Origin: Synechococcus sp. PCC 6312
GTDB taxonomy: Bacteria; Cyanobacteriota; Cyanobacteriia; Thermosynechococcales; Thermosynechococcaceae
Assembly (NCBI RefSeq): GCF_000316685.1
Contig: NC_019680.1
Location: 2,837,407-2,861,406, forward strand
Direction: 5' to 3'
DNA length: 24,000 nucleotides
This document shows, piece after piece, positions 1 to 23,365 of the stretch. The position numbers and the translations under genes were made by a program. The stretch's first letter is position 1. Every line of letters starts with the position of its first letter. The notes beneath the pieces are model-generated. The model worked only from the letters and a program-made list of their open reading frames with translations, searched no databases and was not told the DNA's origin.

Positions 1-20
1 GGGGTGTGGGCGGCATTACT
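1..20. repeat. 3' end of an M3-type GC-rich hairpin repeat, cut by the window edge
   Basis: GGGGTGTGGGCGGCATTACT matches the ends of the M3 copies at 664-690 and 810-836, including the shared ...GGCGGCATTACT boundary. Confidence 0.6.
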
Positions 21-263
21 ATTAAGAATCATTCCTATTTGCAACTATTCAGAATTTTCTCAATAGGTTTTTTGTATTTGCCTAGAAATTTTGAATTAAA
101 TGCAGGAAAAATTCTTAATAAGCTGTTGTTTTTCTGTTACGAGGACTAGTCTTTATAGGTCTCACCCCTAGAACAGAATTATTGCAACTATAGCATAGTT
201 ACTGTCCATCTTTTTCCTGTATTTTAATTTCGATTTGTTTCCTGGTAGGTACTTTCCCCTGTC

Positions 264-500
264 TTACCCTTGCTTGACATGGCCTGGTTTCCAGCATTCG
301 CCTTCTGTGACGCAGTATTTTTGTCCTTCGGATTCTATCCAGATCAGGTCATTTTTGACTTTTGTAATTTCTCCGGTAACTATCTTTGTTCCGGTGATTT
401 TGTGCCAACCGTCTTTTACTGATTCGCTTGGAACTTCTGCTGATACGATTTCGCCAACTTCCATATTTTTTCCTTTAACTCCACTCTGGCTGAAAGACAT
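264..500 (-). CDS. Small hypothetical protein (78 aa; 66 aa if started at the ATG at 464)
   Basis: ORF track. The internal ATG at 464 is preceded by AAAGGA (SD-like) at about 7 nt; the ATG at 500 has no SD. No family recognised. Confidence 0.6.
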   Translation of the reverse strand: MSFSQSGVKGKNMEVGEIVSAEVPSESVKDGWHKITGTKIVTGEITKVKNDLIWIESEGQKYCVTEGECWKPGHVKQG

Positions 501-512
501 TATCTGTTTTTT

Positions 513-836
513 GGAGTGAGGGATGAGCGCAGCGAGGCCTGAACGGATTTATCGAAGCGCGAGCATAGCGAAGCCTGAGTCTGGCGGGAATGAGGGATGA
601 GCGTAGCGAGGCATGAATGGGAGCATGGCCGGAATGGGAGCCGAAGGCGGGAATGGAGAGGGGTGGGTGCCGGGGCGTGGGCGGCATTGATGGGAGTGAG
701 GGATGAGCGACAGCGAGGCCTGAACGGATTATCGAAGCGCGAGCATAGCGAAGCCTGAGTCTGGCGGGAATGAGGGATGAGCGTAGCGAGGCATGAATGG
801 GGAGAGGGGCGGGTGCCGGGGCGTGGGCGGCATTAC
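513..836. repeat. Tandem duplication (period about 180 bp) of a G/A-rich element (M5); each copy ends in an M3 hairpin
   Basis: GGAGTGAGGGATGAGCG...GGCGGGAATGAGGGATGAGCGTAGCGAGGCATGAATGG occurs at 513 and again at 693. Copy 1 carries about 37 extra nt (about 625-660) made of two more GAGC..GGAATGG subunits. Both copies end in GGGTGCCGGGGCGTGGGCGGCATT. Confidence 0.9.
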
Positions 837-1006
837 TTTCTTTTCTGATTCGATGCTTAATTATCCCTGGCCTGGAAGTTGTCGAGCGAGCGTAGCGAAG
901 TGAGGGGGGGGCGCAGGGGGTACTCCCCCCGATTTTCCATGTCTGTCATCCCAACGAGTCCCTGGCCTGGAACAGATGTGTTGTTCTAGGGGTGGATGAT
1001 TGCCAT

Positions 1007-1030
1007 AAAAAAAACCAGTCTTTCGACTGG
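1007..1030 (-). terminator. Intrinsic terminator (minus strand)
   Basis: Hairpin CCAGTC-TTTC-GACTGG (1015-1030), preceded on the plus strand by an A8 run, which is a U-run after the hairpin on the minus strand. Confidence 0.7.
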
Positions 1031-1040
1031 CTGTTGGTTG

Positions 1041-1160
1041 TTATTGGCGTGTTTCGCACTCTGAGTCTGTGAGACAGTCTGCTGTGAACAGAGGCATTGG
1101 CCCGCCGAGTGAGTGAATGCAAAGAGCTATGAATAGGAGGGTGAGATATTGCTTGAGCAT
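1041..1160 (-). CDS. Candidate 39-aa small secreted/membrane peptide (below the ORF-track cutoff)
   Basis: Hand translation: MLKQYLTLLFIALCIHSLGGPMPLFTADCLTDSECETRQ*. It has a hydrophobic N-terminus. It sits between an M1 element and a terminator, exactly like the other cassettes, and it has the same leader (ACGGCGTAGTGTTTGG) seen upstream of the 5391 and 3985 starts. Confidence 0.4.
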   Translation of the reverse strand: MLKQYLTLLFIALCIHSLGGPMPLFTADCLTDSECETRQ

Positions 1161-1174
1161 TTTGGCTACCAAAC

Positions 1175-1398
1175 ACTACGCCGTAGTTAGACACCCCAAC
1201 GGAACGCCGTTAGACCGTGTTATCGCTCCCCGACCTTGGGAGGGGCTGACGACCAGGGGGAGGAAGGGAAGCGATTAGATGGACTTACGGTGCAGCCATA
1301 GCTGAGGGCTTGCCCCTTGAAGTGGGGTGTATCATCCTACGGAGTGTTTCGGTGCGGTCGTTATTGGGACGGGTGGGGTGCCGGGGCCAGGGCGGCGT
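1175..1398. repeat. Structured repeat block A: M1 (about 1175-1335) + M3 hairpin (1371-1398)
   Basis: Outer helix ACACCCC (1191-1197) / GGGGTGT (1324-1330). Conserved junctions CGGAAC and CTTGAAG. The M3 hairpin is GTGCCG-GGGCCAGGG-CGGCGT. Confidence 0.8.
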
Positions 1399-1417
1399 TT
1401 TCATGGCCTGGAGACAA

Positions 1418-1446
1418 TAAAAAAAGCCCCAGATTTCTCCAGGGCT
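1418..1446 (-). terminator. Intrinsic terminator (minus strand) after the 1455-1664 gene
   Basis: AGCCC...GGGCT stem with an A-run on the plus strand (U-run on minus), followed on minus by ATTGTCTCC, a variant of the junction motif. Confidence 0.55.
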
Positions 1447-1454
1447 GTTTGAAT

Positions 1455-1664
1455 TTATGCGTCATGGATTAAAACGATTGATTCTGTGATTTGTTCTGCC
1501 AGATACCCTCGCCGCCGAAGAAACTTAGCGAATGCTTCTGTTTCCTCAGGGTCGCAGTAATAGGCTTCGCAACCGTATTTCTCCGAGTAGAAAGGCTTAA
1601 AGATCGGATTTTTGCTTTCAGAACGGAGAGCTTCAGTCGTGTCCATAAAAGAAACCTCATACAC
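1455..1664 (-). CDS. Small hypothetical protein (69 aa from GTG 1664; 63 aa from ATG 1646)
   Basis: ORF track. Protein-like composition (…KPFYSEKYGCEAYYCDPEETEAFAKFLRRRGYLAEQI…). Terminator immediately downstream and an M1 element immediately upstream. Confidence 0.65.
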   Translation of the reverse strand: MYEVSFMDTTEALRSESKNPIFKPFYSEKYGCEAYYCDPEETEAFAKFLRRRGYLAEQITESIVLIHDA

Positions 1665-1677
1665 ATTACTCTTTTTT

Positions 1678-1988
1678 GGAGAGCAGCCACGGAATGCACT
1701 TAGGGAGACTTGCCGCCGAGAGATTCAGGGATTAGTGAAGGGGTGTTCTGGCGGCTTAGTCGAACTTAGTGGACAGCGGAAGCTGAGGGCTTGTCCCTTG
1801 AAGTGAGATGCTACCTTGGCGAATCATGTGTGCGGGGGGCAGGGGGTGGCGAATCCCCTTAGCACAACTGGAGCAGCCCCTTGGGGGGCGAATAGCGAGG
1901 GGGGACAAAAGCCCGTCCGATTAGGACGGTTCAGTTCTGACATCGTGGACGGTGGCAGCGGGTGGGGTGCCGGGGTGTGGGCGGCATT
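1678..1988. repeat. Structured repeat block B: M1 (about 1678-1818) + M2 (about 1830-1955) + M3 (1959-1988)
   Basis: M2 (…CAGGGGG…CCCCTTAGCACAACTGGAGCAGCCCCTTGGGGGGCGAATAGCGAGGGGGG…AGCCCGTCCGATTAGGACGGTTCAGTTCTGACA) is near-identical to 4190-4322 and 5565-5668. The M3 consensus is GGGTGGGGTGCCGGGGTGTGGGCGGCAT. Confidence 0.85.
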
Positions 1989-2144
1989 TATGTCCTGAGT
2001 AAGAGAGTGTGGGTCATGGTCTGAGTAGTTGCATCGGAAGGAACTGCATATCCATTTTTGTTCTGTCCCGATTGGCATCACGGCACAGCCGCAGAGTGGG
2101 CAGTTCTTGAATTTGTCCAGGTTTTCTAACTTCTTTTTTTTCAT
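1824..2144 (-). CDS. Small zinc-ribbon-like protein whose ORF runs on into repeat block B
   Basis: N-terminal MKKKKLENLDKFKNCPLCGC…CSSFRC gives a CxxC…CxxxxC arrangement. From about residue 50 the reading frame is the reverse complement of M3/M2 (…AAHTPAPHPLPP…), so the true C-terminus is uncertain. Confidence 0.55.
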   Translation of the reverse strand: MKKKKLENLDKFKNCPLCGCAVMPIGTEQKWICSSFRCNYSDHDPHSLTQDINAAHTPAPHPLPPSTMSELNRPNRTGFCPPSLFAPQGAAPVVLRGFATPCPPHT

Positions 2145-2195
2145 TCTTCTTGTTTTGCTATAACAACACTTTTTCTGAAGGACTTTTTTATTTTG

Positions 2196-2292
2196 GGTAG
2201 GAAAGGGAGTTTGAGGGAAGGGAACAGGCCCTCATTGGTGGGTGGGGTGCCGGGGTTGCAAACGAGAGAAGGAGTGCAGCAAGGGCGGCATT
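2196..2292. repeat. M2b + M3 (loop-expanded variant)
   Basis: TAGGAAAGGGAGTTTGAGGGAAGGGAACAGGCCC…TGGTGGGTGGGGTGCCGGGG parallels 3396-3450. The GTGCCG/CGGCAT stem encloses an inner hairpin TTGCA…TGCAG. Confidence 0.75.
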
Positions 2293-2370
2293 CGGGAGAG
2301 AGAGAATTGAACGCACTTGTGTTGGCGAAGTCGAATATCTTGGCCTGTGGTACCAATAATTTCTTTTTGT

Positions 2371-2571
2371 TTATTCAGATTCAACATCGAAATAGGGTTC
2401 ACATCCGGCAGCAATTAAGACTTGATTACCTACCCTGGACATTGACTTGCTTCTAGGGCTATTTGTTATCCCCCATGCCTTAGCACAATCAGCAATGTCA
2501 TCAAATGTTATTCCTCCACCTCCTTCTGATTCCCAGAGTTTCTTGAAGGTATTTTTTGTGTAAACTGTCAT
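2371..2571 (-). CDS. Small hypothetical protein (66 aa)
   Basis: ORF track. Its start overlaps the stop of the upstream 34-aa ORF (TCATGA), which suggests translational coupling. Confidence 0.6.
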   Translation of the reverse strand: MTVYTKNTFKKLWESEGGGGITFDDIADCAKAWGITNSPRSKSMSRVGNQVLIAAGCEPYFDVESE

Positions 2572-2672
2572 GATGTTTTTCCTCTAATGGATTGGTTGTC
2601 TTCGTAGTTGTGATAGTTATCAGCGTAATAGTCGCCTTCATCCCAAGCGGGTTGATTGGGCTGTTCGTCCAT
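2568..2672 (-). CDS. Candidate 34-aa acidic peptide (below the ORF-track cutoff)
   Basis: Hand translation: MDEQPNQPAWDEGDYYADNYHNYEDNQSIRGKTS*. AAAGGA SD 8 nt upstream. The stop overlaps the next start, and the GTCCTGCGG junction motif lies upstream. Confidence 0.4.
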   Translation of the reverse strand: MDEQPNQPAWDEGDYYADNYHNYEDNQSIRGKTS

Positions 2673-2737
2673 TATTTTTATCCTTTAGCGACACTATTCC
2701 GCAGGACATTTTGATTTCCTTGACCTGGGAAGGGGAC

Positions 2738-3106
2738 TTAGACCCGCACAACCCGAACTGGCTTGCCAGCCGCCTGAGCCTCGCTGACCATATTGGCTGT
2801 GCCACGGCTCACGCCGTCCCAGAACACAACGGCTGCGTCACACGCCTGAGCCATGCTCCGGTTCCGAACCGGCCCAGCCGAGCGACCGAAAGCAGCCCAC
2901 TCAGCCGGGAACCGCTCAACCGCAAAACCACGCTCTTGAGCGTAACGCTCGCCAAGTGCATCTGCGCCACGACAGGCACCGGAAAGCACAACCACCTCAA
3001 AGCCCTGAGCCAACTTGTTGGCAAGCAAGGCATCGAGCCGCTCACAGAGCAAACCAAAATCACTGAACTGCCGAGAGCCAGCGATAACGACACGAAAGGG
3101 AGCCAT
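2738..3106 (-). CDS. SLOG-superfamily / DUF2493-like Rossmann-fold protein (122 aa)
   Basis: VVIAGSRQF…VVLSGACRGADALGERYAQE…PAEW…GRSAGPVRNRSMA…AVVFWDGVSRGT resembles the DUF2493/YspA-type SLOG pattern recalled from plasmid and phage proteins. Strong SD GGAGG upstream. Confidence 0.8.
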   Translation of the reverse strand: MAPFRVVIAGSRQFSDFGLLCERLDALLANKLAQGFEVVVLSGACRGADALGERYAQERGFAVERFPAEWAAFGRSAGPVRNRSMAQACDAAVVFWDGVSRGTANMVSEAQAAGKPVRVVRV

Positions 3107-3139
3107 GCGACCTCCAAAGAAAAAAAGAACAGCGTCTCT

Positions 3140-3660
3140 TTGACGACCCCCGGAACGCCGTTACCAAAACTTACCGCTCCCCGACCGACCCTGGAGGGAG
3201 GGGCTGAAGGTGCTTGCACCGTAAGGAAAGCGGCTAGTTTTGGTTACGGGGCAGTGCCATGCACTGAGGCTTTACGCCTTGAAGTGGGGTCGTATCCTGG
3301 AGGCTGCTGAGGTTCCCCTCCTGGGAGGGGTTAGGGGTGGGAGCGTGAACGGAGGTGAACACCACTTCACGGGGGTGCGGGGGGGCCTCCCCGCTATAGG
3401 AAAGGGGGTTTGGGGGAACGGAACGGGCCCCCAATGGGTGGGGTGCCGGGGCTGCGGCGATAAGGCTTTTGGTTTGTGAGAGAGGTTTATTCCGCAGGGG
3501 CGGCATTTGAGAGGGTTTGGGATAGGTTGCACTGGCCTGGGAAAGGCGGCCGGAAACGGCGACAGATTTTGATTTGGTGGGTAATGTTTATTCCGTTTCC
3601 GGCCGCCCGTTAATCTTGGCGTAGTCTGATAGGGGAACGGTACGGTGAGGTTTTGTAATT
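3140..3660. repeat. Structured repeat block C: M1 (3140-3295) + unique G-rich hairpins + M2b (3396-3436) + M3 long form (3436-3506) + M4 (3545-3607)
   Basis: M1 outer helix ACGACCCC (3142-3149) / GGGGTCGT (3285-3292). M4 is a 15-bp perfect inverted repeat, GGCGGCCGGAAACGG (3545-3559) / CCGTTTCCGGCCGCC (3593-3607). The segment 3436-3672 is about 95% identical to 4346-4583. Confidence 0.85.
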
Positions 3661-3663
3661 CAC

Positions 3664-3688
3664 AAAAAAAAGCCAGCCGAAGCTGGCC
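3664..3688 (-). terminator. Intrinsic terminator (minus strand) of the 3695-3985 gene
   Basis: GCCAGC-CGAA-GCTGGC hairpin with a preceding A8 on plus (U8 after the hairpin on minus). Confidence 0.8.
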
Positions 3689-3694
3689 TATTCG

Positions 3695-3985
3695 TTACCG
3701 TTGTTGCTGCTGTTCTACTTTTTGATTTTCTTGAATATTTTCTGTAATTGCCACAAAACCGCAGCTAATTGTTAGAACTAGAACTGGCCAAACCATTTTT
3801 TCTACTGTTTTGGCGTAGCTGTATCGCCTAGCCTTAAAATTTTTGCCCATTTCTACTTTTAATCTAACTTTTCTAAATTTACGATCTAATTCATTCCATT
3901 CTTTAACTAGACCGTTCCAACTGAAATCAAATACTTTAACGGTACGTTTGCCGTTTTTATCGTCACGAATCATTGCTTTACGCAT
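3695..3985 (-). CDS. Small hypothetical protein with a C-terminal TM segment (96 aa)
   Basis: ORF track. Hydrophobic stretch MVWPVLVLTISCGFVAI. Flanked by M1 upstream and a terminator downstream. Confidence 0.7.
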   Translation of the reverse strand: MRKAMIRDDKNGKRTVKVFDFSWNGLVKEWNELDRKFRKVRLKVEMGKNFKARRYSYAKTVEKMVWPVLVLTISCGFVAITENIQENQKVEQQQQR

Positions 3986-4002
3986 TGTAATTTACCAACA
4001 CA

Positions 4003-4575
4003 ACGGCGCTTGGATAGCACAGCACGGAACCGTCCTAGATTTTCTTATCGCTCCCCGACCCTTGGGAGGGGCTGACGTTGCTTGCAACGGAAGGAAAGCG
4101 ATTAGAAAATGTTGGTCGGCACTGCCCTAGCAGTGAGGGAGGGTGAGCCTCGAACCCGACCTTGAAGGCTGTGCTACCTTGCAAAAGCCTGTGTCGGGGG
4201 GGCAGGGGGAAGTCACCCCCTTAGCACAACTGGAGCAGCCCCTTGGGGGGCGAATAGCGAGGGGGGAGAAAAGCCCGTCCGTTAGCGTTAGCGTGCCGTA
4301 AGGCAATTAGGACGATTCAGTTCTGACACTGTGGGCAGTGGCAGCGGGTGGGGTGCCGGGGCTGCGGCGATAAGGCTTGTGGTTTGCGAGAGATGTTTAT
4401 TCCGCAGGGGCGGCATTTGAGAGGGTTTGGGATAGGTTGCACTGGCCTGGGAAAGGCGGCCGGAAACGGCGACAGATTTTGATTTAGCGGGTAATGTTTA
4501 TTCCGTTTCCGGCCGCCCGTTAATCTTGGCGTAGTCTGGCACGGGAATGGGACGTTGTGAGGTTTTGCAACTCAC
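4003..4575. repeat. Structured repeat block D: M1 (4003-4185) + M2 (4190-4322) + M3 long form (4346-4417) + M4 (4455-4517)
   Basis: M1 outer helix TAGCACAGC (4015-4023) / GCTGTGCTA (4168-4176). M1+M2 are near-identical to block E except for a swapped apical hairpin. M3+M4 are near-identical to block C. Confidence 0.85.
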
Positions 4576-4603
4576 AAAAAAAAGACCGGCCTTTCGGCCA
4601 GTC
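4576..4603 (-). terminator. Intrinsic terminator (minus strand) of the 4612-4773 ORF
   Basis: GACCGGCC-TTTC-GGCCAGTC hairpin (one mismatch) preceded on plus by A8. Confidence 0.75.
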
Positions 4604-4611
4604 CCTTTTCT

Positions 4612-4773
4612 TTAGTCTTGACTTATAGACTTAGCCTCTTCTTTAGTTAGATAGATTCCGAAGTCTCCTTCTACTTCGACCCAGACTCCACCTTCTTCTA
4701 AAGCCGCCGCCTCGTCTTTGGTTAGATAGATTCCGAAATATTCATCTATCTGAAACCATTCTGTATATGCCAT
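4612..4773 (-). CDS. Candidate 53-aa acidic protein with an internal duplicated motif (below the ORF-track cutoff)
   Basis: Hand translation: MAYTEWFQIDEYFGIYLTKDEAAALEEGGVWVEVEGDFGIYLTKEEAKSISQD*. The motif (Y/D)FGIYLTK(D/E)EA occurs twice. A terminator follows directly. Confidence 0.5.
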   Translation of the reverse strand: MAYTEWFQIDEYFGIYLTKDEAAALEEGGVWVEVEGDFGIYLTKEEAKSISQD

Positions 4774-4779
4774 CTGGTA

Positions 4780-4990
4780 TTACCAAACTCTACGCCGGGG
4801 TCCTACAGGGGAGCCGACTGGTCAAGGGGTAAAGTGGAGGGCTGCGGAATAAATTTGATGTTACTAAGACTTGCCGCCCCTGTCTCCGCTTATTGCAGAT
4901 CACTCTTTGTTCTCAGGCGGCTTAGTCGCAGTTAATCAAGTTTTATGCCGTAAAGCCTGGAACGTACCTTGACCACCCTCCATCACAACG
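4780..4990. repeat. Divergent M1-like structured leader (block F)
   Basis: Shares the leader ACCAAACTCTACGCC with block A, and the helix GACTTGCCGCC…GGCGGCTTAGTCG with M1 of block B. Also contains GGTCAAGG/CCTTGACC and TGGAGGG/CCCTCCA complementarities in crossing order. Confidence 0.45.
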
Positions 4991-5187
4991 AAGGATATTT
5001 ATATTCCCTGTATAATAGAAAGGCAGAGTTGCCACCCAACGCGAACAACCACCCATCCGGCGACCCTTTACTGTACTTAGCGAAAAATGTTTAGAAAGGT
5101 AATTTCTTTGGGCGGGCCTGGGAGAACGAAACAGACGTTCACCCTTACATATCTTCCCTATTTGATATGCCGAAGTCGGAAGAGGAT

Positions 5188-5212
5188 AAAAAAACGGGCG
5201 GCAGAGCCGCCC
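5188..5212 (-). terminator. Intrinsic terminator (minus strand) of the 5221-5391 gene
   Basis: GGGCGGC-AGA-GCCGCCC hairpin preceded on plus by A7 (U-run on minus). Confidence 0.8.
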
Positions 5213-5220
5213 CATATTTT

Positions 5221-5391
5221 TTAGCATTTATATTTAATACTAAAATCATCATCCTCCTCTTCAACTTTCATATAATCAACAAACTCTTTATTCTTCATTA
5301 CTTTCTTTACAAACTTATTTACCTCTTTCAAACTAAACAAATATCCACACTCTTTCTCAAACAACTTAAACTTCACTTCATAATAAAACAT
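5221..5391 (-). CDS. Small AT-rich hypothetical protein (56 aa from ATG 5391; the ORF track extends to 5427)
   Basis: ORF track. The M1 repeat starts at 5410, and the conserved leader ends about 18 nt before ATG 5391, which matches the spacing at the 3985 start. I therefore prefer the internal start (MFYYEVKFKLFEKE…). Confidence 0.6.
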   Translation of the reverse strand: MFYYEVKFKLFEKECGYLFSLKEVNKFVKKVMKNKEFVDYMKVEEEDDDFSIKYKC

Positions 5392-5409
5392 ACAAACAAC
5401 CAAAACACT

Positions 5410-5745
5410 ACGGCGCTTGGATAGCACAGCACGGAACCGTCCTAGATTTTCTTAGCGGCTGGCTTGCCAGACGGTTAGAAAATGTTGGTCGGCACTGCCC
5501 TAGCAGTGAGGGAGGGTGAGCCTCGAACCCGACCTTGAAGGCTGTGCTACCTTGCAAAAGCCCGTGTCGGGGGGGCAGGGGGAAGTCACCCCCTTAGCAC
5601 AACTGGAGCAGCCCCTTGGGGGGCGAATAGCGAGGGGGGGAAAAAGCCCGTCCGATTAGGACGGTTCATTGGGGGGGGTTGGGGGGGGAACGCCCCCCTA
5701 ATCTGGTATGCAGAACAAAGTGACGCTACCAGATTAGGTCTGAAA
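5410..5745. repeat. Structured repeat block E: M1 (5410-5560) + M2 (5565-5668) + G/C homopolymer hairpin + 12-bp inverted repeat (about 5698-5740)
   Basis: Outer helix 5422-5430 / 5541-5549. The apical hairpin is replaced by GGCTGG-CTTG-CCAGAC. The inverted repeat is CCTAATCTGGTA…TACCAGATTAGG (12 bp perfect). Confidence 0.85.
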
Positions 5746-5827
5746 CTTCGGCATAGGAAAATAGCGAGAGAGCCAGTCGTGCCTTATTAAAATCCACGAA
5801 TTCTGTAAGTCTTACTGGTTGCTTGTT

Positions 5828-6733
5828 TCAGGCTGATTTCGGCATATCAGATTCTTGGATATATGGCATAACTTCGTGTAGGACTTCTTTCATAAGTTCA
5901 GACTCACGGAGGCTTCCGCAGATACCGCTATAGAGGTTTGGCTTCCATCCATTAAGTTCATCGCAGTAGATCATGGTGTTGCAATGAAGTTTGGCCATCA
6001 TGATCATATTTCTACGGATCATGGCCTTAATGGCCCACTTAATCTTGAGGTCATCTTTGAGGTGCAGTTGACTGACTGGACCGGACTTGCCAGGGAGGTT
6101 ACGAAGTTTGGATTCAATGCGGTAGTATGTCCATTTTTGGGTATTGTACTTGCGGATATTGGCATACTTAGGAGCGATCCATTCCTTTTTGAAGGACTGA
6201 ATGAGGGTCTTAATTTCGGGTTGGCTCCAGACTTTGATCGGCTTTGCCGACTTATGGATAACGAGCTTATCGCCTGTTAGCCATTCCGACTCGGTTTGGG
6301 TGACGATTTCTACGAAGGACTTGAGTTCGTTGTGAGAGAACTTGTAAGTATAGACTTCACGCCCACTCCAGTTTTCTTTCTGGCTTTTATTGCTGCTTTT
6401 TACATGGTCAGCAACGATTAGTGTTTTCTGGGCCAACTCCCATGCTTTTTTTAGGGTTTCGACTCGTTCCTCCCAGGTTTCGATCACGTTCAGAACATAG
6501 GTCATGGTTACAATATCGGCGGGTTCGAGTGGGGTGGGGAAGTAGTAGGGGTCATAGCATTTTGACTTAAAGCCAAGTTCATTCAGCCATTCGGTGTCTT
6601 TTCCATACCCGCAGCCAAAATCCAGGTGCGACTGGCTTGGGTGGATCATCATGTTTTTGATCATCAATCTGACGGTACTTGAAGGATGCTTTCGCTTTGG
6701 AGCAGACTTATGGCGATTAGACTTGATTAGCAT
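5828..6733 (-). CDS. Class I SAM-dependent methyltransferase, N-terminal domain, with an uncharacterised C-terminal half (301 aa)
   Basis: Motif I LDFGCGYGKD followed by an acidic-loop-like …CYDPY…. The substrate (DNA, RNA or small molecule) cannot be told from the sequence. Confidence 0.8.
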   Translation of the reverse strand: MLIKSNRHKSAPKRKHPSSTVRLMIKNMMIHPSQSHLDFGCGYGKDTEWLNELGFKSKCYDPYYFPTPLEPADIVTMTYVLNVIETWEERVETLKKAWELAQKTLIVADHVKSSNKSQKENWSGREVYTYKFSHNELKSFVEIVTQTESEWLTGDKLVIHKSAKPIKVWSQPEIKTLIQSFKKEWIAPKYANIRKYNTQKWTYYRIESKLRNLPGKSGPVSQLHLKDDLKIKWAIKAMIRRNMIMMAKLHCNTMIYCDELNGWKPNLYSGICGSLRESELMKEVLHEVMPYIQESDMPKSA

Positions 6734-7568: not shown

Positions 7569-7982
7569 TTACAGCGGTATCTGGTATCTCCGTTCAGGAT
7601 TCTTTTGTGAATGTGCCTTGTGACCATGACTCCGAGGTTGGAAGCCCATTTTTGTCATGATCAGTTTCCAGTTTCTGTCATGTCCAATTCTTTTTTTTGG
7701 CCATAGGCGACAGCAAATGGTATGGGCTAATTCATGGGCATAGACTTGGGGCAGTTCTGACGGGTTTTCGGAGAGTAGGGGTAGATTTAATTCAATTTTG
7801 TCTTTACTGGCTCTCCCGGCTGTTGTTTTAAGGCGAGTATTGTATTTAACGGTAATGGGTTTTTCGGTGATCATGGCGATTATTTTGGCTGAGAATTGAC
7901 GCTTCAGTTTTTCCATGATGCCTTGGTGAATTGTCCGGATTCTTACCTTAGTTTTCTGGTCAATTCCAACAAATATTAGCAT
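7569..7982 (-). CDS. SprT-like zinc metallopeptidase domain protein (137 aa)
   Basis: N-terminal …NTRLKTTAGRAS…IELN… and the HExxH motif YAHELAHTIC match the SprT-like family pattern. AAGGAG SD upstream. Confidence 0.8.
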   Translation of the reverse strand: MLIFVGIDQKTKVRIRTIHQGIMEKLKRQFSAKIIAMITEKPITVKYNTRLKTTAGRASKDKIELNLPLLSENPSELPQVYAHELAHTICCRLWPKKRIGHDRNWKLIMTKMGFQPRSHGHKAHSQKNPERRYQIPL

Positions 7983-8207: not shown

Positions 8208-8224
8208 AGATTTTTATGGAATAG

Positions 8225-8694
8225 ACATCCTAGCCGAAGGACAATAAAAAACTCTGGGTGTTAGCCAGAGCTTGGTTTTGGTTAGGAACCTCATCGCAGC
8301 CTATCCGAAGGTTAACCAAAAACCCCCACCATTTCTGATGAGGGCTTTTGATTGTCCATAACCTTGCCTGTAAGCACCTCATCCGAAGGAAAAGAAAAAA
8401 CCCTCATTATTCAATGAGGGAATCTTCCGTGTGTAGAGTTTGGTTTTATGACATCCTAGCCGAAGGACAATAAAAAAACCTCACCATTTCTGGCGAGGCT
8501 GGCCACCAAATGTATTCAGTTGTTGCACGACATTTTGTTACAACACAGTTTTTTTCTCCCTTCGATACAGCATTTGCACCAATCGCACTGAATTATTTTT
8601 GATACACCCCCACCGAAGGACAATAAAAAACCCCCATCGTTTGATGGAGGATTTTGTGTAGAGTTCTGGTTTTCTTCACCCGTTACCGCAGGAC
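8225..8694 (-). repeat. Tandem array of five to six ORF-less 'hairpin + T-run + ATTGTCCTTCGG' junction units
   Basis: On the plus strand, CCGAAGGAC (or CCGAAGGTT / CCGAAGGAA / CCGCAGGAC) occurs at 8234, 8305, 8383, 8460, 8613 and 8686. Each of the first five is followed by AATAAAAAA and a different hairpin (for example CCCTCATT-ATTC-AATGAGGG at 8401-8420). Confidence 0.8.
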
Positions 8695-8808: not shown

Positions 8809-10086
8809 TTAGAAGACATAGGCATAACCGTCTTTTTTGTGCATGGCTTTGCAGTATTTGTGGCTGATACCTGCCACTCTTCCAGTTGCCGTGGCTATGT
8901 CAAAACTGCCAGAGGCTCGACAAAGAACCCGACCCACATAGAAGCCGATTTTCTTGCCTGCCGTAACGGTCGCTCTGACAATATCGCCAGTTTGAAAGCC
9001 TTTATGAATCTGTACTCTGGACTTATGGCGAGTCGAAAAACCAAACTTGTCAGTCCCACACATCTGCCGTGTGCCGTGACCTTTGGCGGTAATGAGCAAC
9101 GGCTTTGAAGTCAGGACTTTGAGCGCATCAACCTGACCCACACAAGCGGCATCCAACCAATGAGCTTTGGGCAGGTCTAAGCGGGTGCGGTTGAATTTAG
9201 TTTGTCCACCCGTCCCTGTCGTGAGTGGCAACCCCGTCGCTTTCAGTGCATTGAATAACGCCCATCGGGTAGAGTTGACTGCTGCTGCATCCTTGAGAGG
9301 GGCTTTAGCCTTTCTCAGAATCCGTTGTAGTAACTCAGGCTTACCGAATAGGAAGTCTCGAATGTCCTGATTTCCCTTGCTTTGGTTACAGGCATGACAA
9401 GCCATTGTGAGGTTAGAAACTCGGTCAGTTCCGCCTCTCGACCTGGGGTGAATATGCTCTACTTCTAAAGGGACATCTTTAGTTCCACAGTAAGTACATT
9501 TTCTGCCCCACTTTTCTAGTAGATACTCTCTGACTTCGTAGCCTTGTAATTCCCCTTGTTGGTACTCAATGCCTGAGATTTCAGGATTTTGTAACTTCTG
9601 TAGGTCAAACCGTACCAACTCTTGAGCGATACTGCCAAGGGGAGCTAGATTTCTGAGCCGATTTACCCAGGTCAGCACCGTATCAACTCGATGTTTCAGG
9701 CTAGGAGCAAGCCAACCATCAGGGCGATTACGATTTAGAAAACGGGGCTGACGATAACGGGTTTTCCGATTTCGCCTCCCACGCCGTAATTGACGACGAG
9801 ACAGCAAGGCATCTTTAATCTGTTGCCCCCGGTGCTGCAATTCGGCTCCAAAGATGATTTTGTTGCCTTGTTTAATTGCAATTCCAGTAACTTTAGAACC
9901 GGGGTCTAATTTGAGTTCTAAGTCTTGCACGGGGACATCAGGATGAGCTTCTTTCAAGATGAGGGTAAATGGAAAACGACGATATACTGCCGCTTTTCCT
10001 TGGTTGAGTAGATGACGAGCCTTCCCAGGATGAACGGGATCAAGCGGTCGTTTTTGGGTATCGAGAACAAAGATAAAATTGGACAT
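8809..10086 (-). CDS. iscB: IscB RNA-guided nuclease (OMEGA system; RuvC-HNH-RuvC with an N-terminal PLMP domain), 425 aa
   Basis: PLMP-type N-terminus VLDTQKRPLDPVHPGKARHLL. RuvC-I LKLDPGSKVTGIAI. Arg-rich bridge helix RRQLRRGRRNRKTRYRQPRFLNR. HNH CTYCG…EVEHIHPRSRGG…CHACNQSKGN. RuvC-III HWLDAACVG. ATG at 10086 with a GGAG SD; the track's GTG at 10155 lies in the omega-RNA region. Confidence 0.93.
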   Translation of the reverse strand: MSNFIFVLDTQKRPLDPVHPGKARHLLNQGKAAVYRRFPFTLILKEAHPDVPVQDLELKLDPGSKVTGIAIKQGNKIIFGAELQHRGQQIKDALLSRRQLRRGRRNRKTRYRQPRFLNRNRPDGWLAPSLKHRVDTVLTWVNRLRNLAPLGSIAQELVRFDLQKLQNPEISGIEYQQGELQGYEVREYLLEKWGRKCTYCGTKDVPLEVEHIHPRSRGGTDRVSNLTMACHACNQSKGNQDIRDFLFGKPELLQRILRKAKAPLKDAAAVNSTRWALFNALKATGLPLTTGTGGQTKFNRTRLDLPKAHWLDAACVGQVDALKVLTSKPLLITAKGHGTRQMCGTDKFGFSTRHKSRVQIHKGFQTGDIVRATVTAGKKIGFYVGRVLCRASGSFDIATATGRVAGISHKYCKAMHKKDGYAYVF

Positions 10087-10340
10087 TGAAAGTCTCCGTA
10101 AAACGGGTAATGTGTTCCTCGCCAATGTTTTTAAGGCTTGTTTGGCTAACGACACTGCTTTACCCCTCGTAAGGCTGTTTAATCGCTAACGACAGAGCTA
10201 CAAACTGGAAAGCATTTGTAGGTGTCATGACCTTAAAAACGTAGTCAGTCAAGACTTAGGCTGGTCAACTAACTGAAGCTAGAGGCATGAAGCCCCATTA
10301 CTTCAGTGCGGGGTGCTGACTCAGACTGAAAGACCGTAGC
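10087..10340 (-). ncRNA. Putative omega-RNA (HEARO-type) scaffold of the IscB element; 5' end and guide not resolved
   Basis: Position only. IscB omega-RNAs are encoded directly 5' of, and overlapping, the iscB start. The region is ORF-poor with local hairpins (for example CTTCAGT…ACTGAAG at about 10272-10310). I could not verify the consensus structure by eye. Confidence 0.55.
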
Positions 10341-11784: not shown

Positions 11785-12450
11785 ATGCAGCGACTGATGG
11801 TAGCTCTGTTAGCGGTCATGGCCATGGCCATGACCGCTGGCGAAGTATTTGCAAATCCGTTCAAGATTCCCAATTCTACGGGTGATCGGGTAACGTTTCG
11901 GATGGATGGTTTAACGCCTGGTTCTGAGATTCAGGTCGGTGCCGGGGATACGAAAGCGAAACTTACCGCTTATACGATCAACAACTACGGGCGGATTAGT
12001 CCCCCGGCTGGTGCGACCAAGGTACGGAAATGGGGCGATACAACTTGGATCAACCTATCCAGTGCGACCGATCTGACTGATTCGGTCAAGGTTGCAACCG
12101 TTCAAGGTCAGCGTCAGTTTGCGCCTAAAGTGGCGGGTCAAAACTTACCGACTATCCCTTCCTTTATCAAACTTGGTACGGCGTTTTACTGGAATCCTGG
12201 CACTACGCTTCCAACTGATGGAATCTTCATTGAGTTTGATGTTCCGGTACAGCGTGTTGCGAAAGTTAATGCGTGTGGCCAGCTTTCAATCTCGGTTAGT
12301 TCGGTGAACGGCAGTGTCAATTACGTTCCTGCTGTGACGGTAAACGGAACAAGTTATACGATTGCAAGCCTTCCGGTCGGAAATCCGGCTAACTTATCTC
12401 GTTGCGTCAAGTACGGCGAGTCCACTTACGTCCGGTACGTTCCGCAGTAG
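11785..12450 (+). CDS. Secreted protein, paralog 1 of a four-member tandem family (221 aa)
   Basis: Signal peptide MQRLMVALLAVMAMAMTAGEVFA|NP. Family motifs NACGQLS…C.KYGESTYVRYVPQ. Confidence 0.85.
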   Translation: MQRLMVALLAVMAMAMTAGEVFANPFKIPNSTGDRVTFRMDGLTPGSEIQVGAGDTKAKLTAYTINNYGRISPPAGATKVRKWGDTTWINLSSATDLTDSVKVATVQGQRQFAPKVAGQNLPTIPSFIKLGTAFYWNPGTTLPTDGIFIEFDVPVQRVAKVNACGQLSISVSSVNGSVNYVPAVTVNGTSYTIASLPVGNPANLSRCVKYGESTYVRYVPQ

Positions 12451-12458
12451 AGGTACTG

Positions 12459-13076
12459 ATGTTAAGACCTGTCCTATTGGCTTTGTTTTGGTTGTTGGGT
12501 GCGTTGCCTGTGGTAGCGAATCCGGTACGAGTGCCGAGTGCCAGTGGTAACTCGATGCGCGTCAGTTTTGAAGGCTTCAATCCAAACAGTGAGGTACAGG
12601 TCGGCGTTGGCCTACGGCGATACCGAGCATCGCTGTCTATTAAACAGGGTGGGATGTCTTTTTTCCGGTTCACGTCACCTGAAGGAGCGACAGCGGTTCG
12701 TGTGGTTGGCCAAGAGAACTGGACGGCCCTGAGCCTTATTTCAGATCAGACCGCAAACTTGCGGGTCACTGGTACTGGTGAACAGCGTCAGTTTCTGGCG
12801 AAGAATCCGAAGGATTTTTGGTCAACCTTTGTTCCTTCTTTCAACGGGTATATGAAGGTGGGTCGGTCTTTCTTTTATCGGGGCAATGGAGACTCAATCA
12901 TGTTTGAGTTCAATGTCCAGGCTTACCGATTAGCAAAGGCGGATGCGTGTGGGCGAATTTCGCTGCTCTATCCGGTATCGGGTTCACGGGCCATCTCATC
13001 GGTCACGGTTGGCCAAACCTTTTACAGGCTTGACAGCGTTCCGACTGCCAGCAGATTGCCTGAATGTTCTCAATAG
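12459..13076 (+). CDS. Secreted protein, paralog 2 (205 aa from ATG 12459)
   Basis: GAGG SD precedes ATG 12459. Signal peptide MLRPVLLALFWLLGALPVVA|NP. DACGRIS…PECSQ. The track start at 12402 overlaps paralog 1. Confidence 0.8.
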   Translation: MLRPVLLALFWLLGALPVVANPVRVPSASGNSMRVSFEGFNPNSEVQVGVGLRRYRASLSIKQGGMSFFRFTSPEGATAVRVVGQENWTALSLISDQTANLRVTGTGEQRQFLAKNPKDFWSTFVPSFNGYMKVGRSFFYRGNGDSIMFEFNVQAYRLAKADACGRISLLYPVSGSRAISSVTVGQTFYRLDSVPTASRLPECSQ

Positions 13077-13095
13077 TTTTTCTTAGGAGTTGATG

Positions 13096-13824: not shown

Positions 13825-13840
13825 TAGTTGTGATCTCACT

Positions 13841-13866
13841 GCGGCCTAGCTATAGGCCGCTTTTTT
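13841..13866 (+). terminator. Intrinsic terminator (plus strand)
   Basis: GCGGCCTA-GCTA-TAGGCCGC followed by T6. Confidence 0.85.
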
Positions 13867-13880
13867 GTGTAGGTGAACCT

Positions 13881-15728: not shown

Positions 15729-15760
15729 GGGTGGGGTGCCGGGGCTTAAAAAGGGGCGGC
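15729..15760. repeat. Isolated M3-type repeat far from the left-hand array
   Basis: GGGTGGGGTGCCGGGGCTTAAAAAGGGGCGGC shares the 16-nt 5' core with all M3 copies. Confidence 0.75.
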
Positions 15761-23179: not shown

Positions 23180-23365
23180 TTAGAGATTAAATCGGCTCTC
23201 TTGAGAAGAGGGTGATAGGTAAGACCAATGAGAAAAACAAGCCATCAGGCCCATTGGTAGATGTCCAAAATTTGTAGAGCCATACGCCTGACGCTTAATT
23301 ACCTTAATTTTATTATTAATCCCTTCCATCACCCCACTAGTAGGGCGAAGGTTTAGAGATAACAC
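23180..23365 (-). pseudogene. C-terminal remnant of an ISL3-family transposase
   Basis: …MEGINNKIKVIKRQAYGSTNF… matches the conserved ISL3 C-terminal motif (EGxNNKIKxxKRxAYGF). Only about 60 codons remain, with no upstream body. Confidence 0.7.

What the first reader, a model, noticed from the sequence alone, without database searches (positions are those of the whole stretch)
1..5750. Cassette-like array: unrelated small ORFs, each with its own terminator, separated by mosaic GC-rich structured repeat blocks
On the minus strand at least eleven short, mutually unrelated ORFs (34-122 aa) are each followed by a clean intrinsic terminator. Each is then followed by a 100-650 bp G-rich (on plus) non-coding block, and the next ORF comes after that.

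The blocks are built combinatorially from a few recurring modules:
- A = M1+M3
- B = M1+M2+M3
- 2196-2292 = M2b+M3
- C = M1+M2b+M3+M4
- D = M1+M2+M3+M4
- E = M1+M2
- 513-836 = (M5+M3) x2

Neighbouring blocks share different halves. D matches E in M1+M2, and D matches C in M3+M4. That is the signature of modular recombination rather than simple duplication.

The M1 module always ends about 15-25 nt before the next start codon, with a shared leader (ACGGCGTWGTGTTTGG on minus). GC-rich repeats alternate with AT-richer ORFs. I do not recognise this as CRISPR, canonical integron attC, REP/BIME or a known MITE.

Functional possibilities, all inference:
- recombination sites that shuffle cassettes, analogous in logic to integron attC sites or the PeSL cassettes of T4-type phages;
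- cis-acting RNA leaders (antitermination or translational control) that re-arm expression after each terminator;
- single-strand-DNA promoter/initiation hairpins, like the Frpo/ssi elements of plasmid leading regions.
Basis: partly seen in the sequence, partly recalled or inferred. Interest (0 to 1): 0.88.

Follow-up and report, generated by a model that had tools for sequence, protein, structure and literature searches.

The report
Repeat-flanked small-gene array on cyanobacterial plasmid
A cyanobacterial plasmid carries a row of about ten small, mostly orphan genes, each preceded by a long G-rich folded repeat block that ends in a promoter-like box; this layout resembles the gene-shuffling 'regulatory cassettes' of T4-type phages, and one 26-base piece of the repeat turns out to be an undescribed motif shared by mobile DNA in many bacterial phyla.

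Summary
Window 1-5750 holds ten same-strand small ORFs separated by G-skewed, 57-60% GC blocks built from recurring modules, all in one orientation. Block D is chimeric: E-like next to the ORF and C-like on the far side. "Each ORF has its own terminator" is overstated, since only 5 of 10 do.

It is not CRISPR, not an attC/integron array and not any Rfam family. The context is a cyanobacterial plasmid backbone, and three related plasmids lack the blocks.

The "shared leader" looks like a -10 box (TAGTGT-type) 12-18 nt before the ATG. The blocks therefore lie upstream of the promoters and are not long RNA leaders.

Homology between blocks stops between that box and the ATG on one side, and at the terminator T-run on the other. 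This is the same logic as T4-type PeSL cassettes. A distant relative of the flanking methyltransferase (L137) has the same architecture with an unrelated repeat.

Module M3 (GGGTGGGGTGCCGGGG-hairpin-GGGCGGC) is a helix/G-tract element. It occurs across phyla, as single copies between a terminator and the next promoter on plasmid-like DNA, and as multi-copy REP/MITE-like repeats in some genomes. Neither Rfam nor the searchable literature has it. Its function is unknown. An Frpo-type single-stranded-DNA role was tested and is inconclusive.

The parts
1..17 (+). M3 copy, cut by the window edge (GGGGTGTGGGCGGCATT)
264..500 (-). small ORF o264 (78 aa, orphan)
513..836 (+). (M5+M3) x2: a 180-nt tandem duplication, purine-rich and not structured; M3 copies at 655-688 and 801-834
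1013..1032 (-). intrinsic terminator after o1041
1041..1163 (-). small ORF o1041 (40 aa, hydrophobic N-terminus, orphan)
1173..1424 (+). block A = M1 (1173-1345) + M3 (1366-1399); complement of the -10-like hexamer at 1173-1178
1425..1446 (-). intrinsic terminator after o1455
1455..1646 (-). small ORF o1455 (63 aa, orphan)
1665..1995 (+). block B = M1 + M2 (1833-1933, with an internal terminator-like hairpin at 1913-1929 on the minus strand) + M3 (1955-1988)
1824..2144 (-). ORF o1995 (Zn-ribbon-like N-terminus); no stop or terminator before block B, so it reads on through M3/M2
2196..2292 (+). M2b (2198-2238) + M3 with a 27-nt hairpin insert (2239-2292)
2371..2672 (-). ORFs o2568 (34 aa) and o2371 (66 aa; the latter is homologous to a domain of ~346-aa proteins P0001-P0003); -10-like TAGTGT (complement at 2691-2696) upstream
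2738..3106 (-). SLOG / YAcAr / DUF2493 gene (122 aa, 61% GC, own GGAGG ribosome-binding site)
3120..3669 (+). block C = M1 + M2b (3397-3437) + M3 with a 46-nt hairpin (3435-3507) + M4 (3508-3669)
3670..3689 (-). intrinsic terminator after o3695
3695..3985 (-). small ORF o3695 (96 aa, orphan)
3997..4583 (+). block D = M1 + M2 (4195-4295) + M3 (4345-4417) + M4; chimeric (E-like 3997-4285, C-like 4346-4584)
4584..4599 (-). intrinsic terminator after o4612
4612..4773 (-). small ORF o4612 (53 aa, internal 25-aa repeat, orphan)
4786..5195 (+). mostly unique spacer ('F'): only the leader/-10-like part (complement at 4787-4792) and a 22-nt match to block B are shared; not G-rich
5196..5212 (-). intrinsic (bidirectional) terminator after o5221
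5221..5391 (-). small ORF o5221 (56 aa, 25% GC, orphan)
5404..5750 (+). block E = M1 + M2 (5568-5668) + a different G-run hairpin; no M3
5828..6733 (-). flanking methyltransferase (family annotated as 'DNA phosphorothioation-associated putative methyltransferase')
15729..15759 (+). isolated M3 copy; in ORF sense it is followed after 36 nt by TATAAT and then a small ORF

Best explanation
The region is an accessory-gene island of a cyanobacterial plasmid, built from self-contained mini transcription units.

Each unit, read on the minus strand, has three parts:
- a long repeat block that ends in a -10-type promoter box (TAGTGT, TAGAGT or TAATGT);
- 12-18 nt later, a small and mostly orphan ORF;
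- usually an intrinsic terminator.

The blocks belong to one modular family (M3, then optional M2/M2b, then M1, with optional M4/M5) and always have the same polarity as the genes. They are shared, whereas the ORF-plus-terminator units are unique. Homologous recombination between blocks can therefore swap, duplicate or delete genes without disturbing their neighbours. This is the mechanism shown for PeSL promoter-terminator cassettes in T4-type phages. The chimeric block D is a footprint of such an exchange.

Within the blocks, M1 and M3 keep base-paired structures through compensatory changes, so they act as folded single strands. M3 is a 5-bp helix (UGCCG/CGGCA) around a GGG/GGG internal loop and a variable hairpin, preceded by GGGUGGG. 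Together these give four G-tracts that could form a quadruplex. On mobile DNA in other phyla, M3 sits at the head of a transcription unit, between the upstream terminator and the next promoter.

Shown: the anatomy, strand specificity, chimerism, covariation, absence from related plasmids, and the recurrence of the architecture with an unrelated repeat (L137).

Inferred: that the hexamer is the promoter, that recombination shuffles the genes, and that the folded modules act at the DNA level upstream of the promoter (as insulator, regulator or single-strand signal).
For: - Anatomy and mosaic structure.
- Strand specificity of every motif.
- Terminators.
- The hexamer lies 12-18 nt from the ATG in six ORFs. 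TTCCG-N21-hexamer spacing holds in blocks A, B, D and E.
- The 16-mer AAATGTCCTGCGGAAT next to the hexamer recurs in L137, where TTATAAT follows it.
- The isolated M3 copy is followed by TATAAT.
- Homology breakpoints fall between the hexamer and the ATG, and at the terminator T-run. This matches PeSL crossovers (PMC2839356).
- The plasmid backbone was identified, and relatives L125-L127 lack the blocks.
- Methyltransferase-led islands elsewhere have the same layout. L137 has 300-450 nt direct repeats of unrelated sequence plus terminators and a SLOG gene. L142 has ArdA and repeated promoter/operator 43-mers. L138 has repeated TTGACA...TATAAT promoters.
- M1 helix covariation.
- M3 helix covariation (UCCG/CGGA, GUCG/CGAC), the hairpin nature of its inserts, and its fold.
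- M3 lies between a terminator and a promoter next to methylase, ParA, TrfA-like and Abi genes in other phyla.
Against: - No transcription data exist, so the -10 assignment is by sequence only and no conserved -35 was found.
- Eight of ten ORFs have no homologues. Their coding status rests on openness statistics that are weak for each ORF alone.
- No closely related plasmid with different ORFs between the same blocks was found. Both other samples are 100% identical, so gene turnover is inferred and not observed.
- PeSLs are about 50-70 nt. Nothing in the PeSL model explains why these blocks are 250-600 nt, G-skewed and structured.
- M3 behaves as a dispersed, orientation-free repeat in Faecalibacterium and actinomycete genomes. 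The blocks could therefore be largely selfish.
- Only 5 of 10 ORFs have terminators.
Confidence: 0.45

Rival explanations
1. The blocks are selfish mosaic intergenic repeats, like REP/BIME, BOX or MITE elements. They colonised the terminator-proximal spacers of this island, and any promoter or insulator effect is incidental.
For: - M3 is multi-copy and in both orientations in Faecalibacterium MAGs, Mangrovactinospora and Streptomyces sp. 6N223.
- Inverted M3 copies bound elements of about 200-300 nt in L020 and L025. Inverted doublets (REPIN-like) occur in Mangrovactinospora.
- The format, a conserved single-stranded 5' segment plus an imperfect hairpin, is the format of REP sequences (established knowledge of REP/RAYT).
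- Related plasmids lack the blocks.
- ORF 1824-2144 runs into a block.
- Short-read contigs break inside M2 and M3.
Against: - In the window all 9 M3, 5 M1 and 6 TGGCCTGG copies share one orientation, and there are no inverted copies.
- M1 keeps a fixed register with the hexamer and the ATG.
- No terminal inverted repeats or target duplications were seen in the window.
- M1, M2 and M5 were found nowhere else.
- Single-copy M3 on plasmid-like DNA of other phyla keeps a constant polarity and position.
- REP families are normally species-specific, not identical across phyla.
Confidence: 0.25
2. The blocks are single-stranded-DNA signals of a plasmid leading region, like Frpo/ssi. The G-rich plus strand would be the transferred template strand. 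Its folded blocks would recruit RNA polymerase or a primase, so that each downstream gene is transcribed or made double-stranded soon after entry.
For: - Plasmid backbone.
- One-strand gene orientation, an orphan methyltransferase, a SprT-like protein and small orphan ORFs match the published leading-region anti-defence islands, which carry several Frpo-like elements each (PMC11541004).
- ArdA lies in the related island L142.
- Strict strand specificity.
- M3's hairpin in blocks C and D uses G·T pairs on the plus strand.
- In block A the promoter complement pairs with a distal near-copy of the non-template leader (P=0.017).
Against: - No sigma-70-like -35/-10 on the plus strand.
- No blastn match in the plasmid collection, which would be expected to include the F-like plasmids that carry known Frpo/ssi elements (that they are included is my assumption).
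- The pairing test fails in blocks B, E and F and is not significant in D.
- No relaxase or oriT is in the window, and the closest plasmid relatives are typed non-mobilizable.
- The M1 helix has U·G pairs in ORF sense, which would be C·A mismatches on the plus strand.
Confidence: 0.15
3. The blocks are transcribed RNAs. Either they are long structured 5' leaders in ORF sense (for antitermination or translational control), or they are divergent G-rich non-coding RNAs that end at the bidirectional terminators.
For: - M1 covariation with U·G pairs in ORF sense.
- Blocks C, D and E are strongly structured.
- TA-hexamers lie about 36 nt after M3 in several blocks, with a perfect TATAAT in the isolated copy.
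- On the G-rich strand, M3 is directly followed by an intrinsic terminator in L087, L131 and L134.
Against: - A -10-like hexamer lies between M1 and the ATG.
- Only 2 of 9 M3-proximal hexamers fit TAnnnT.
- There is no Rfam match.
- The 513-836 block is unstructured.
- M2 contains a sense-strand terminator-like hairpin that would stop a leader transcript.
Confidence: 0.1
4. The array is a site-specific cassette system, either integron-like or driven by an HUH nickase, in which M3 is the recombination or nicking site.
For: - Direct repeats of a strand-specific hairpin-plus-flank motif bound the gene units.
- This format resembles sites used by HUH enzymes and folded attC sites (established knowledge).
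Against: - No integrase, relaxase or transposase acting on such sites is in the window.
- There are no attC core sites.
- The blocks are far longer than attC.
- Homology breakpoints are not at M3.
Confidence: 0.05

Closest known systems
PeSL (promoter-early stem-loop) mobile regulatory cassettes of T4-type phages (PMC2839356, PMC4122927)
   Same: - Repeated composite units (terminator plus promoter) flank small orphan ORFs in a hyperplastic region.
- Each gene is a transcriptionally isolated unit.
- Homology ends between the -10 and the ATG.
- The mosaic pattern implies recombination between repeats.
   Different: - The host is a plasmid, not a phage.
- The repeats are 250-600 nt, G-skewed, modular and structured, against about 50-70 nt.
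- The terminator hairpins are unique and not part of the conserved repeat.
- There is no strong sigma-70 -35 element.
- Mini-circles and gene turnover have not been demonstrated.
Frpo/ssi repeats in plasmid leading-region anti-defence islands (PMC11541004; Masai & Arai 1997, as cited there)
   Same: - Several copies of a ~300-nt structured non-coding element lie in one orientation.
- Each copy sits upstream of a small gene on one strand of a plasmid island that also carries a methyltransferase.
   Different: - No -35/-10/UP inside a hairpin.
- No sequence homology to known Frpo/ssi elements was detected.
- Leading-region position is unknown.
- The hairpin geometry is seen convincingly in only one block.
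REP/BIME and REPIN elements (and BOX elements of pneumococcus)
   Same: - They are mosaics of a few short modules in intergenic DNA near terminators.
- M3 has a conserved single-stranded 5' part plus an imperfect hairpin.
- M3 is multi-copy, and forms inverted doublets, in some genomes.
   Different: - In this window every copy has the same orientation and a fixed register with gene starts.
- The same M3 sequence occurs across phyla, whereas REPs are lineage-specific.
- No RAYT gene was seen.
Integron cassette arrays (attC)
   Same: Unrelated small ORFs in one orientation are separated by structured repeats.
   Different: - No attC core sites and no integrase in the window.
- The repeats are much longer.
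- The genes carry their own promoter-like boxes and terminators.
pilE-associated G-quadruplex of Neisseria (recalled from memory; a lead only)
   Same: A GGGTGGG-type G4-forming sequence lies next to a locus that diversifies by recombination with cassettes.
   Different: - No evidence here for G4 formation or for a G4-dependent recombination pathway.
- M3 has an obligatory helix and hairpin that the pilE G4 lacks.

Membership tests
Integron / attC cassette array | attC sites with R'' (RYYYAAC) and R' (GTTRRRY) core sites 50-140 nt apart at cassette ends | tested here: not met
   0 such pairs in 1-5830 on either strand; shuffles give 1.0 +/- 1.4. This was a regex test only; IntegronFinder's model was not available.
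Integron / attC cassette array | intI tyrosine recombinase with attI and Pc next to the array | tested here: not met
   No recombinase among the window ORFs. The array continues beyond the left window edge, so this is not excluded for the whole plasmid.
CRISPR array | near-identical 23-50 nt direct repeats regularly spaced by unique spacers of similar length | tested here: not met
   The repeats are 100-600 nt mosaics with irregular spacing, and ORFs lie between them.
Known RNA family (Rfam 15) | match at gathering score to any covariance model | tested here: not met
   No hit in 1-6000 at gathering score, and only chance-level hits at E<=5. Nothing overlaps M3 in 19 other loci.
Frpo/ssi single-stranded-DNA promoter | -35, -10 and UP elements reconstituted inside a long ssDNA hairpin | tested here: inconclusive
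   No sigma-70-like site on the plus strand. The promoter complement pairs with a distal mimic only in block A (P=0.017). D is not significant, and B, E and F show none.
Frpo/ssi single-stranded-DNA promoter | sequence homology to known Frpo/ssi elements | tested here: not met
   blastn of 1-6000 against 72,556 plasmids found no match. I assume, but did not check, that this collection includes the F-like plasmids carrying known Frpo/ssi elements.
Frpo/ssi single-stranded-DNA promoter | location in the leading region next to oriT, with genes templated by the transferred strand | not testable with these tools
   No relaxase or oriT in the window. The source plasmid is not available as a complete record.
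PeSL-type regulatory cassettes | repeated promoter-plus-terminator motifs flanking small ORFans | tested here: met
   A -10-like hexamer lies at the ORF-proximal end of the repeats in 6 ORFs. Terminators follow 5 of 10 ORFs, and 8 of 10 ORFs are orphans. Promoter activity was not tested.
PeSL-type regulatory cassettes | recombination between the repeats produces indels, replacements or mini-circles | tested here: inconclusive
   Block D is chimeric, which implies past exchange. No variant plasmid was found, and the other samples are 100% identical.
MITE | terminal inverted repeats and target-site duplication | tested here: not met
   No inverted M3 or other terminal inverted repeat in the window. 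Inverted M3 ends occur only in Faecalibacterium elements L020 and L025.
REP/BIME | hundreds of extragenic copies genome-wide in both orientations, with a cognate RAYT | not testable with these tools
   The host genome was not retrievable. In other genomes M3 is multi-copy and in both orientations.

The most novel reading that the evidence does not exclude
M3 would be a previously undescribed, cross-phylum structured element of mobile DNA. It is a helix / G-tract (possible G-quadruplex) / hairpin junction, read on the template strand at the head of transcription units. It would work in single-stranded or underwound DNA in one of two ways: as a start signal for priming or early expression after plasmid entry, or as a G4-type recombination hotspot or HUH-type nicking site that makes the gene units between successive copies exchangeable. 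The array here would then be a plasmid-borne gene-shuffling and early-expression platform of a new kind, and not merely a PeSL look-alike.
Probability: 0.15. Interest if true: 0.9.

Novelty: new variant of a known kind. Interest (0 to 1): 0.62.

Why it matters
If the reading holds, it extends the 'mobile regulatory cassette' way of shuffling orphan genes from T4-type phages to cyanobacterial plasmids. Together with L137, it suggests that islands of repeat-flanked small genes led by a methyltransferase are a recurrent plasmid design whose repeat sequence is free to change.

Such islands are where anti-defence and establishment genes are being found, so the orphan ORFs here are candidates for that role.

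Separately, M3 is a compact and very strongly conserved motif. The same 23 positions recur in genomes from 28% to over 70% GC. It has covariation-supported structure and appears in neither Rfam nor the searchable literature. It gives a concrete, testable handle on a possibly general signal of mobile DNA.

Tried and rejected
- Rfam at gathering and permissive thresholds on the array and on 19 M3 loci found nothing relevant.
- tRNA scans found no association.
- blastn of the array against phages and plasmids gave no match.
- M1, M2 and M5 patterns gave 0 hits in viral contigs.
- Attempts to recover the source contig or genome by exact protein look-up returned only short Logan contigs identical to the window, breaking in M2/M3.
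- The L131 methylase-M3-ParA junction gave no match against plasmids.
- The bare M3 motif gave only marginal hits in high-GC plasmids.
- Literature searches for the exact M3 strings found nothing relevant.
- The HDV-like, twister, riboswitch, sigma-54 and ECF-promoter ideas for M3/M1 were considered from memory. I dropped them for lack of any Rfam hit or consistent consensus match.
- The group IIC intron idea (insertion after terminators) was dropped because no intron domains were detected.
- Rho-utilisation sites in the C-rich sense RNA were rejected because, to my knowledge, cyanobacteria lack Rho.
- The TAGCGA / ssoA CS-6 resemblance is only a strand-biased hexamer count and was not pursued.
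- My first shuffle script hung and produced nothing.
- One Pfam call failed on a wrong frame.

Full report
**1. What is there**

Window 1-5750 contains ten ORFs on the minus strand (34-122 aa). They are separated by blocks that are 57-60% GC and G-skewed on the plus strand (+0.17 to +0.55). The ORFs are 25-48% GC, apart from one 61% GC gene.

- A = M1+M3
- B = M1+M2+M3
- 2196-2292 = M2b+M3
- C = M1+M2b+M3+M4
- D = M1+M2+M3+M4
- E = M1+M2
- 513-836 = a 180-nt tandem duplication of M5+M3

Block D is chimeric. It matches E at 96-98% (ungapped parts) over 3997-4285, and it matches C at 94% over 4346-4584.

Every recurrent motif is strictly strand-specific: M3 9:0, TGGCCTGG 6:0, CCTTGAAG 5:0, TAGCGA 12:0.

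Corrections to the finding:
- Only five ORFs have clean terminators.
- SLOG, o2568 and o2371 form a terminator-less run.
- ORF 1824-2144 has no stop before block B and reads on into M3/M2.
- The stretch 4786-5195 is not a G-rich block.
- Blocks C, D and E are strongly structured (z -3 to -6), but A and 513-836 are not.
- A ninth M3 lies outside the array at 15729-15759.
- The array continues past the left edge of the window.

**2. What it is not**

- Rfam finds nothing in the array at gathering or permissive thresholds. The only Rfam hit in the window is a HEARO/omega-RNA next to an IscB gene at 8809-10320.
- There are no tRNAs.
- There are no attC-type core-site pairs: 0 against about 1 expected.
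- No integrase, relaxase or replication gene is in the window.
- The repeats are not CRISPR-like.
- blastn finds no relative of the array in phage or plasmid collections.

**3. Context**

The right part of the window encodes an AAA ATPase, a YdjM-type hydrolase, a DUF87/TrwB-like ATPase, and HlyD/TolC-like proteins. This is a module shared by many cyanobacterial plasmids: Gloeocapsa pGLO7428.01, Microcystis NIES-2481 p1, Stanieria pSTA7437.03, Synechococcus elongatus and Synechocystis plasmids. Forty-kilobase regions of the three closest relatives contain no M3 and essentially no G-skewed blocks. The blocks are therefore a lineage-specific addition.

A methyltransferase (5828-6733) and a SprT-like protein (7569-7982) lie next to the array.

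Two of the ten array ORFs have homologues:
- a SLOG/YAcAr/DUF2493 protein, which is common on plasmids;
- o2371, which matches a domain of ~346-aa proteins.

The other eight are orphans. Their reading frames are jointly, though not individually, more open than shuffled sequence.

**4. The 'leader' is most simply a promoter box**

Six ORFs have TAGTGT, TAGAGT, TAATGT or TTGTGT 12-18 nt before the ATG. In blocks A, B, D and E the invariant TTCCG lies exactly 21 nt upstream of that hexamer.

One of the six, o2568, has no block in front of it. Its hexamer is preceded by AAATGTCCTGCGGAA(T). That 16-mer recurs in the unrelated contig L137, where TTATAAT follows it. The isolated M3 at 15.7 kb is followed by TATAAT and then, 21 nt later, by an ATG.

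I infer that the hexamer is the -10 box, that the mRNAs have very short leaders, and that the blocks lie upstream of the promoters. This is inference from sequence, and no -35 consensus was found.

**5. Cassette logic**

Homology between blocks D and E stops 10-14 nt before the two unrelated start codons, between the hexamer and the ATG. Homology between C and D runs up to the T-run of two different terminators.

The unique unit is therefore about 10 nt, plus the ORF, plus the terminator hairpin. Everything else is shared. This is the organisation described for PeSL cassettes of T4-type phages. There, composite terminator/promoter repeats flank ORFans, and crossovers were mapped between the -10 and the ATG (PMC2839356 and PMC4122927).

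**6. The architecture recurs with other repeats**

The methyltransferase belongs to a family annotated as 'DNA phosphorothioation-associated putative methyltransferase'. Its distant relatives (37-40% identity) head similar islands:

| Locus | What follows the methyltransferase |
|---|---|
| L137 | Same-strand small ORFs, including DUF4326 and a SLOG gene. At least two (those ending near 3731 and 4631) end in near-identical clean terminators. Each ORF is followed by a directly repeated 300-450 nt block of unrelated sequence that ends near a TTGACA box about 45 nt before the next ATG |
| L142 | ArdA and repeated promoter/operator 43-mers |
| L138-L141 | Phage-like context with repeated CCCTTGACA...TATAAT promoters |

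So 'a repeated regulatory block, then a unique small gene, then a terminator' is a recurrent design, and the repeat sequence is free to differ. The published description of plasmid leading-region anti-defence islands has the same ingredients: one-strand genes, methyltransferases, many small unknown ORFs and several Frpo-like elements per island (PMC11541004).

**7. The modules fold**

M1 has a long helix whose arms differ completely between copies but stay complementary (ATTTTCT/AGAAAAT, CCAAAACT/AGTTTTGG, GACT/AGTC). Nineteen of 42 predicted pairs show double changes, and there are U·G pairs in ORF sense.

M3 is GGGTGGGGTGCCGGGG, then an insert, then GGGCGGC(ATT). It folds as:
- a 5-bp helix UGCCG/CGGCA;
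- a symmetric GGG/GGG internal loop;
- an apical hairpin of 3-46 nt.

With the 5' GGGUGGG, this gives four G-tracts. A G4-aware energy model prefers a quadruplex for the short-loop copies. Natural variants change the helix in a compensatory way: UCCG/CGGA in L014 and GUCG/CGAC in L025. In low-GC genomes, inserts of 10 nt or more are clean hairpins, and the 9-mers covary (UGC/GCA against CGC/GCG).

**8. M3 is widespread and undescribed**

- Many copies, in both orientations, occur in Mangrovactinospora gilvigrisea, three Faecalibacterium MAGs and Streptomyces sp. 6N223.
- Single copies occur in Lachnospiraceae, Oscillospiraceae, Verrucomicrobia, Acidobacteria, Thermodesulfobacteriota, Formivibrio and a cyanobacterial MAG.
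- Three viral contigs and nine metagenome contigs of 28-57% GC also carry it.

In Faecalibacterium it heads elements with long variable hairpins. In L020 and L025 inverted copies bound elements of 200-300 nt. It shows no preferred orientation relative to genes, which is REP/MITE-like behaviour.

The single-copy loci show a constant layout on the C-rich strand:
- an upstream gene (N6/N4 DNA methylase in L059, L087, L131 and L134; TrfA-like in L045; Abi in L084);
- a terminator;
- M3;
- 40-200 nt with promoter- or operator-like sequence;
- the next gene (ParA in L004, L087 and L131).

This is the polarity and position M3 has in the window. Neither Rfam nor exact-string literature searches know the motif. 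M1, M2 and M5 were not found elsewhere.

**9. Test of the Frpo-type idea**

If the G-rich plus strand were the transferred template strand, an Frpo-like element should rebuild the promoter inside a hairpin.

- In block A the plus-strand fold pairs the complement of the leader (CCAAACACTA, 1169-1178) with AGTGTTTCGG at 1343-1352. That partner is a near-copy of the non-template leader, and the pairing beats shuffles (P=0.017).
- Block D has a positionally similar partner that is not significant.
- Blocks B, E and F have none.
- No sigma-70-like site exists on the plus strand.

The idea stays open but unsupported.

**10. Verdict**

The most likely reading (about 45%) is a PeSL-like array of self-contained gene units on a plasmid. 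The shared, promoter-bearing, structured upstream blocks give common control and provide the homology for gene shuffling.

The main rival (about 25%) is that the blocks are largely selfish REP/BIME-like repeats. The two readings are not exclusive. Leading-region ssDNA signals (about 15%), transcribed RNAs (about 10%) and site-specific cassette systems (about 5%) remain possible.

The array is a new variant of a known kind of organisation. The M3 motif is the most novel element and deserves its own study.

Noticed in passing
window 8809-10320 (minus strand): An IscB gene (RRXRR + HNH domains) with its HEARO/omega-RNA (Rfam RF02033, 161.6 bits). The RNA is about 90% identical to a copy on a Chroococcidiopsis thermalis plasmid.
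   Followed up: partly
window 8224-8651: Five copies of a ~77-nt unit just downstream of IscB. Each is a terminator-like hairpin followed by TTTTTTATTGTCCTTCGG (minus sense). The tail resembles the TTTTTTTATTGTCTCCAGGCC after the array terminator at 1425-1446. The function is unknown; they could be tandem small-RNA genes or stacked terminators.
   Followed up: no
window 280, 868, 963, 1404, 3533, 4443 (plus strand): The octamer TGGCCTGG (CCAGGCCA in ORF sense) occurs six times, only in the array and only on one strand. It usually lies between a terminator and M3. About 0.2 occurrences are expected by chance. It is unexplained.
   Followed up: partly
window 11785-14627 (plus strand): A run of plus-strand ORFs at 11785-12450, 12402-13076, 13090-13824 and 13830-14627, none with a Pfam match. 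The last two are clearly tandem paralogues with signal-peptide-like N-termini and a conserved C-terminus (...CYKTGETSYTLFVPA; DNA repeat 74% identical).
   Followed up: no
window 23180-23365 (minus strand): A short ORF that looks like the C-terminal remnant of an ISL3-family transposase (...EGINNKIKVIKRQAYG...), judged by eye only.
   Followed up: no
L007 4960-5180, L051, L027 (Lachnospiraceae MAGs): Tandem ~31-nt repeats (GGGTGGGGTGCCGGGCTTGCAGGTACTTCCC) end in a perfect M3 directly upstream of the ribosome-binding site of an Mrp/NBP35-like gene (MDGCTHDCSSC...). Here the G-rich strand is the sense strand, opposite to the plasmid-type loci.
   Followed up: no
L129 ~1020-1085: M3 directly abuts what looks like the 5' two-thirds of a tRNA-Arg(UCU) gene that ARAGORN does not call. 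This may be the junction of an element integrated into a tRNA gene.
   Followed up: partly
L137 3036-5140 and 5667-6264: This cyanobacterial contig (with HIP1 sites) carries its own family of 300-450 nt directly repeated intergenic blocks. One copy (3267-3292) contains a sense-strand terminator-like hairpin, and the blocks end with a TTGACA box. It is a second, unrelated instance of the window's architecture.
   Followed up: partly
window whole: There is no HIP1 (GCGATCGC) site in 24 kb although the backbone is cyanobacterial. L137 has many. This may say something about the host lineage or a recent arrival of the plasmid.
   Followed up: no
window 1913-1929 and 5648-5664 (minus strand), inside M2: M2 carries a terminator-like hairpin in ORF sense (CCGTCCTAATCGGACGG + GCTTTT). 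A block therefore places a second stop signal between neighbouring genes, which fits an insulating role.
   Followed up: no
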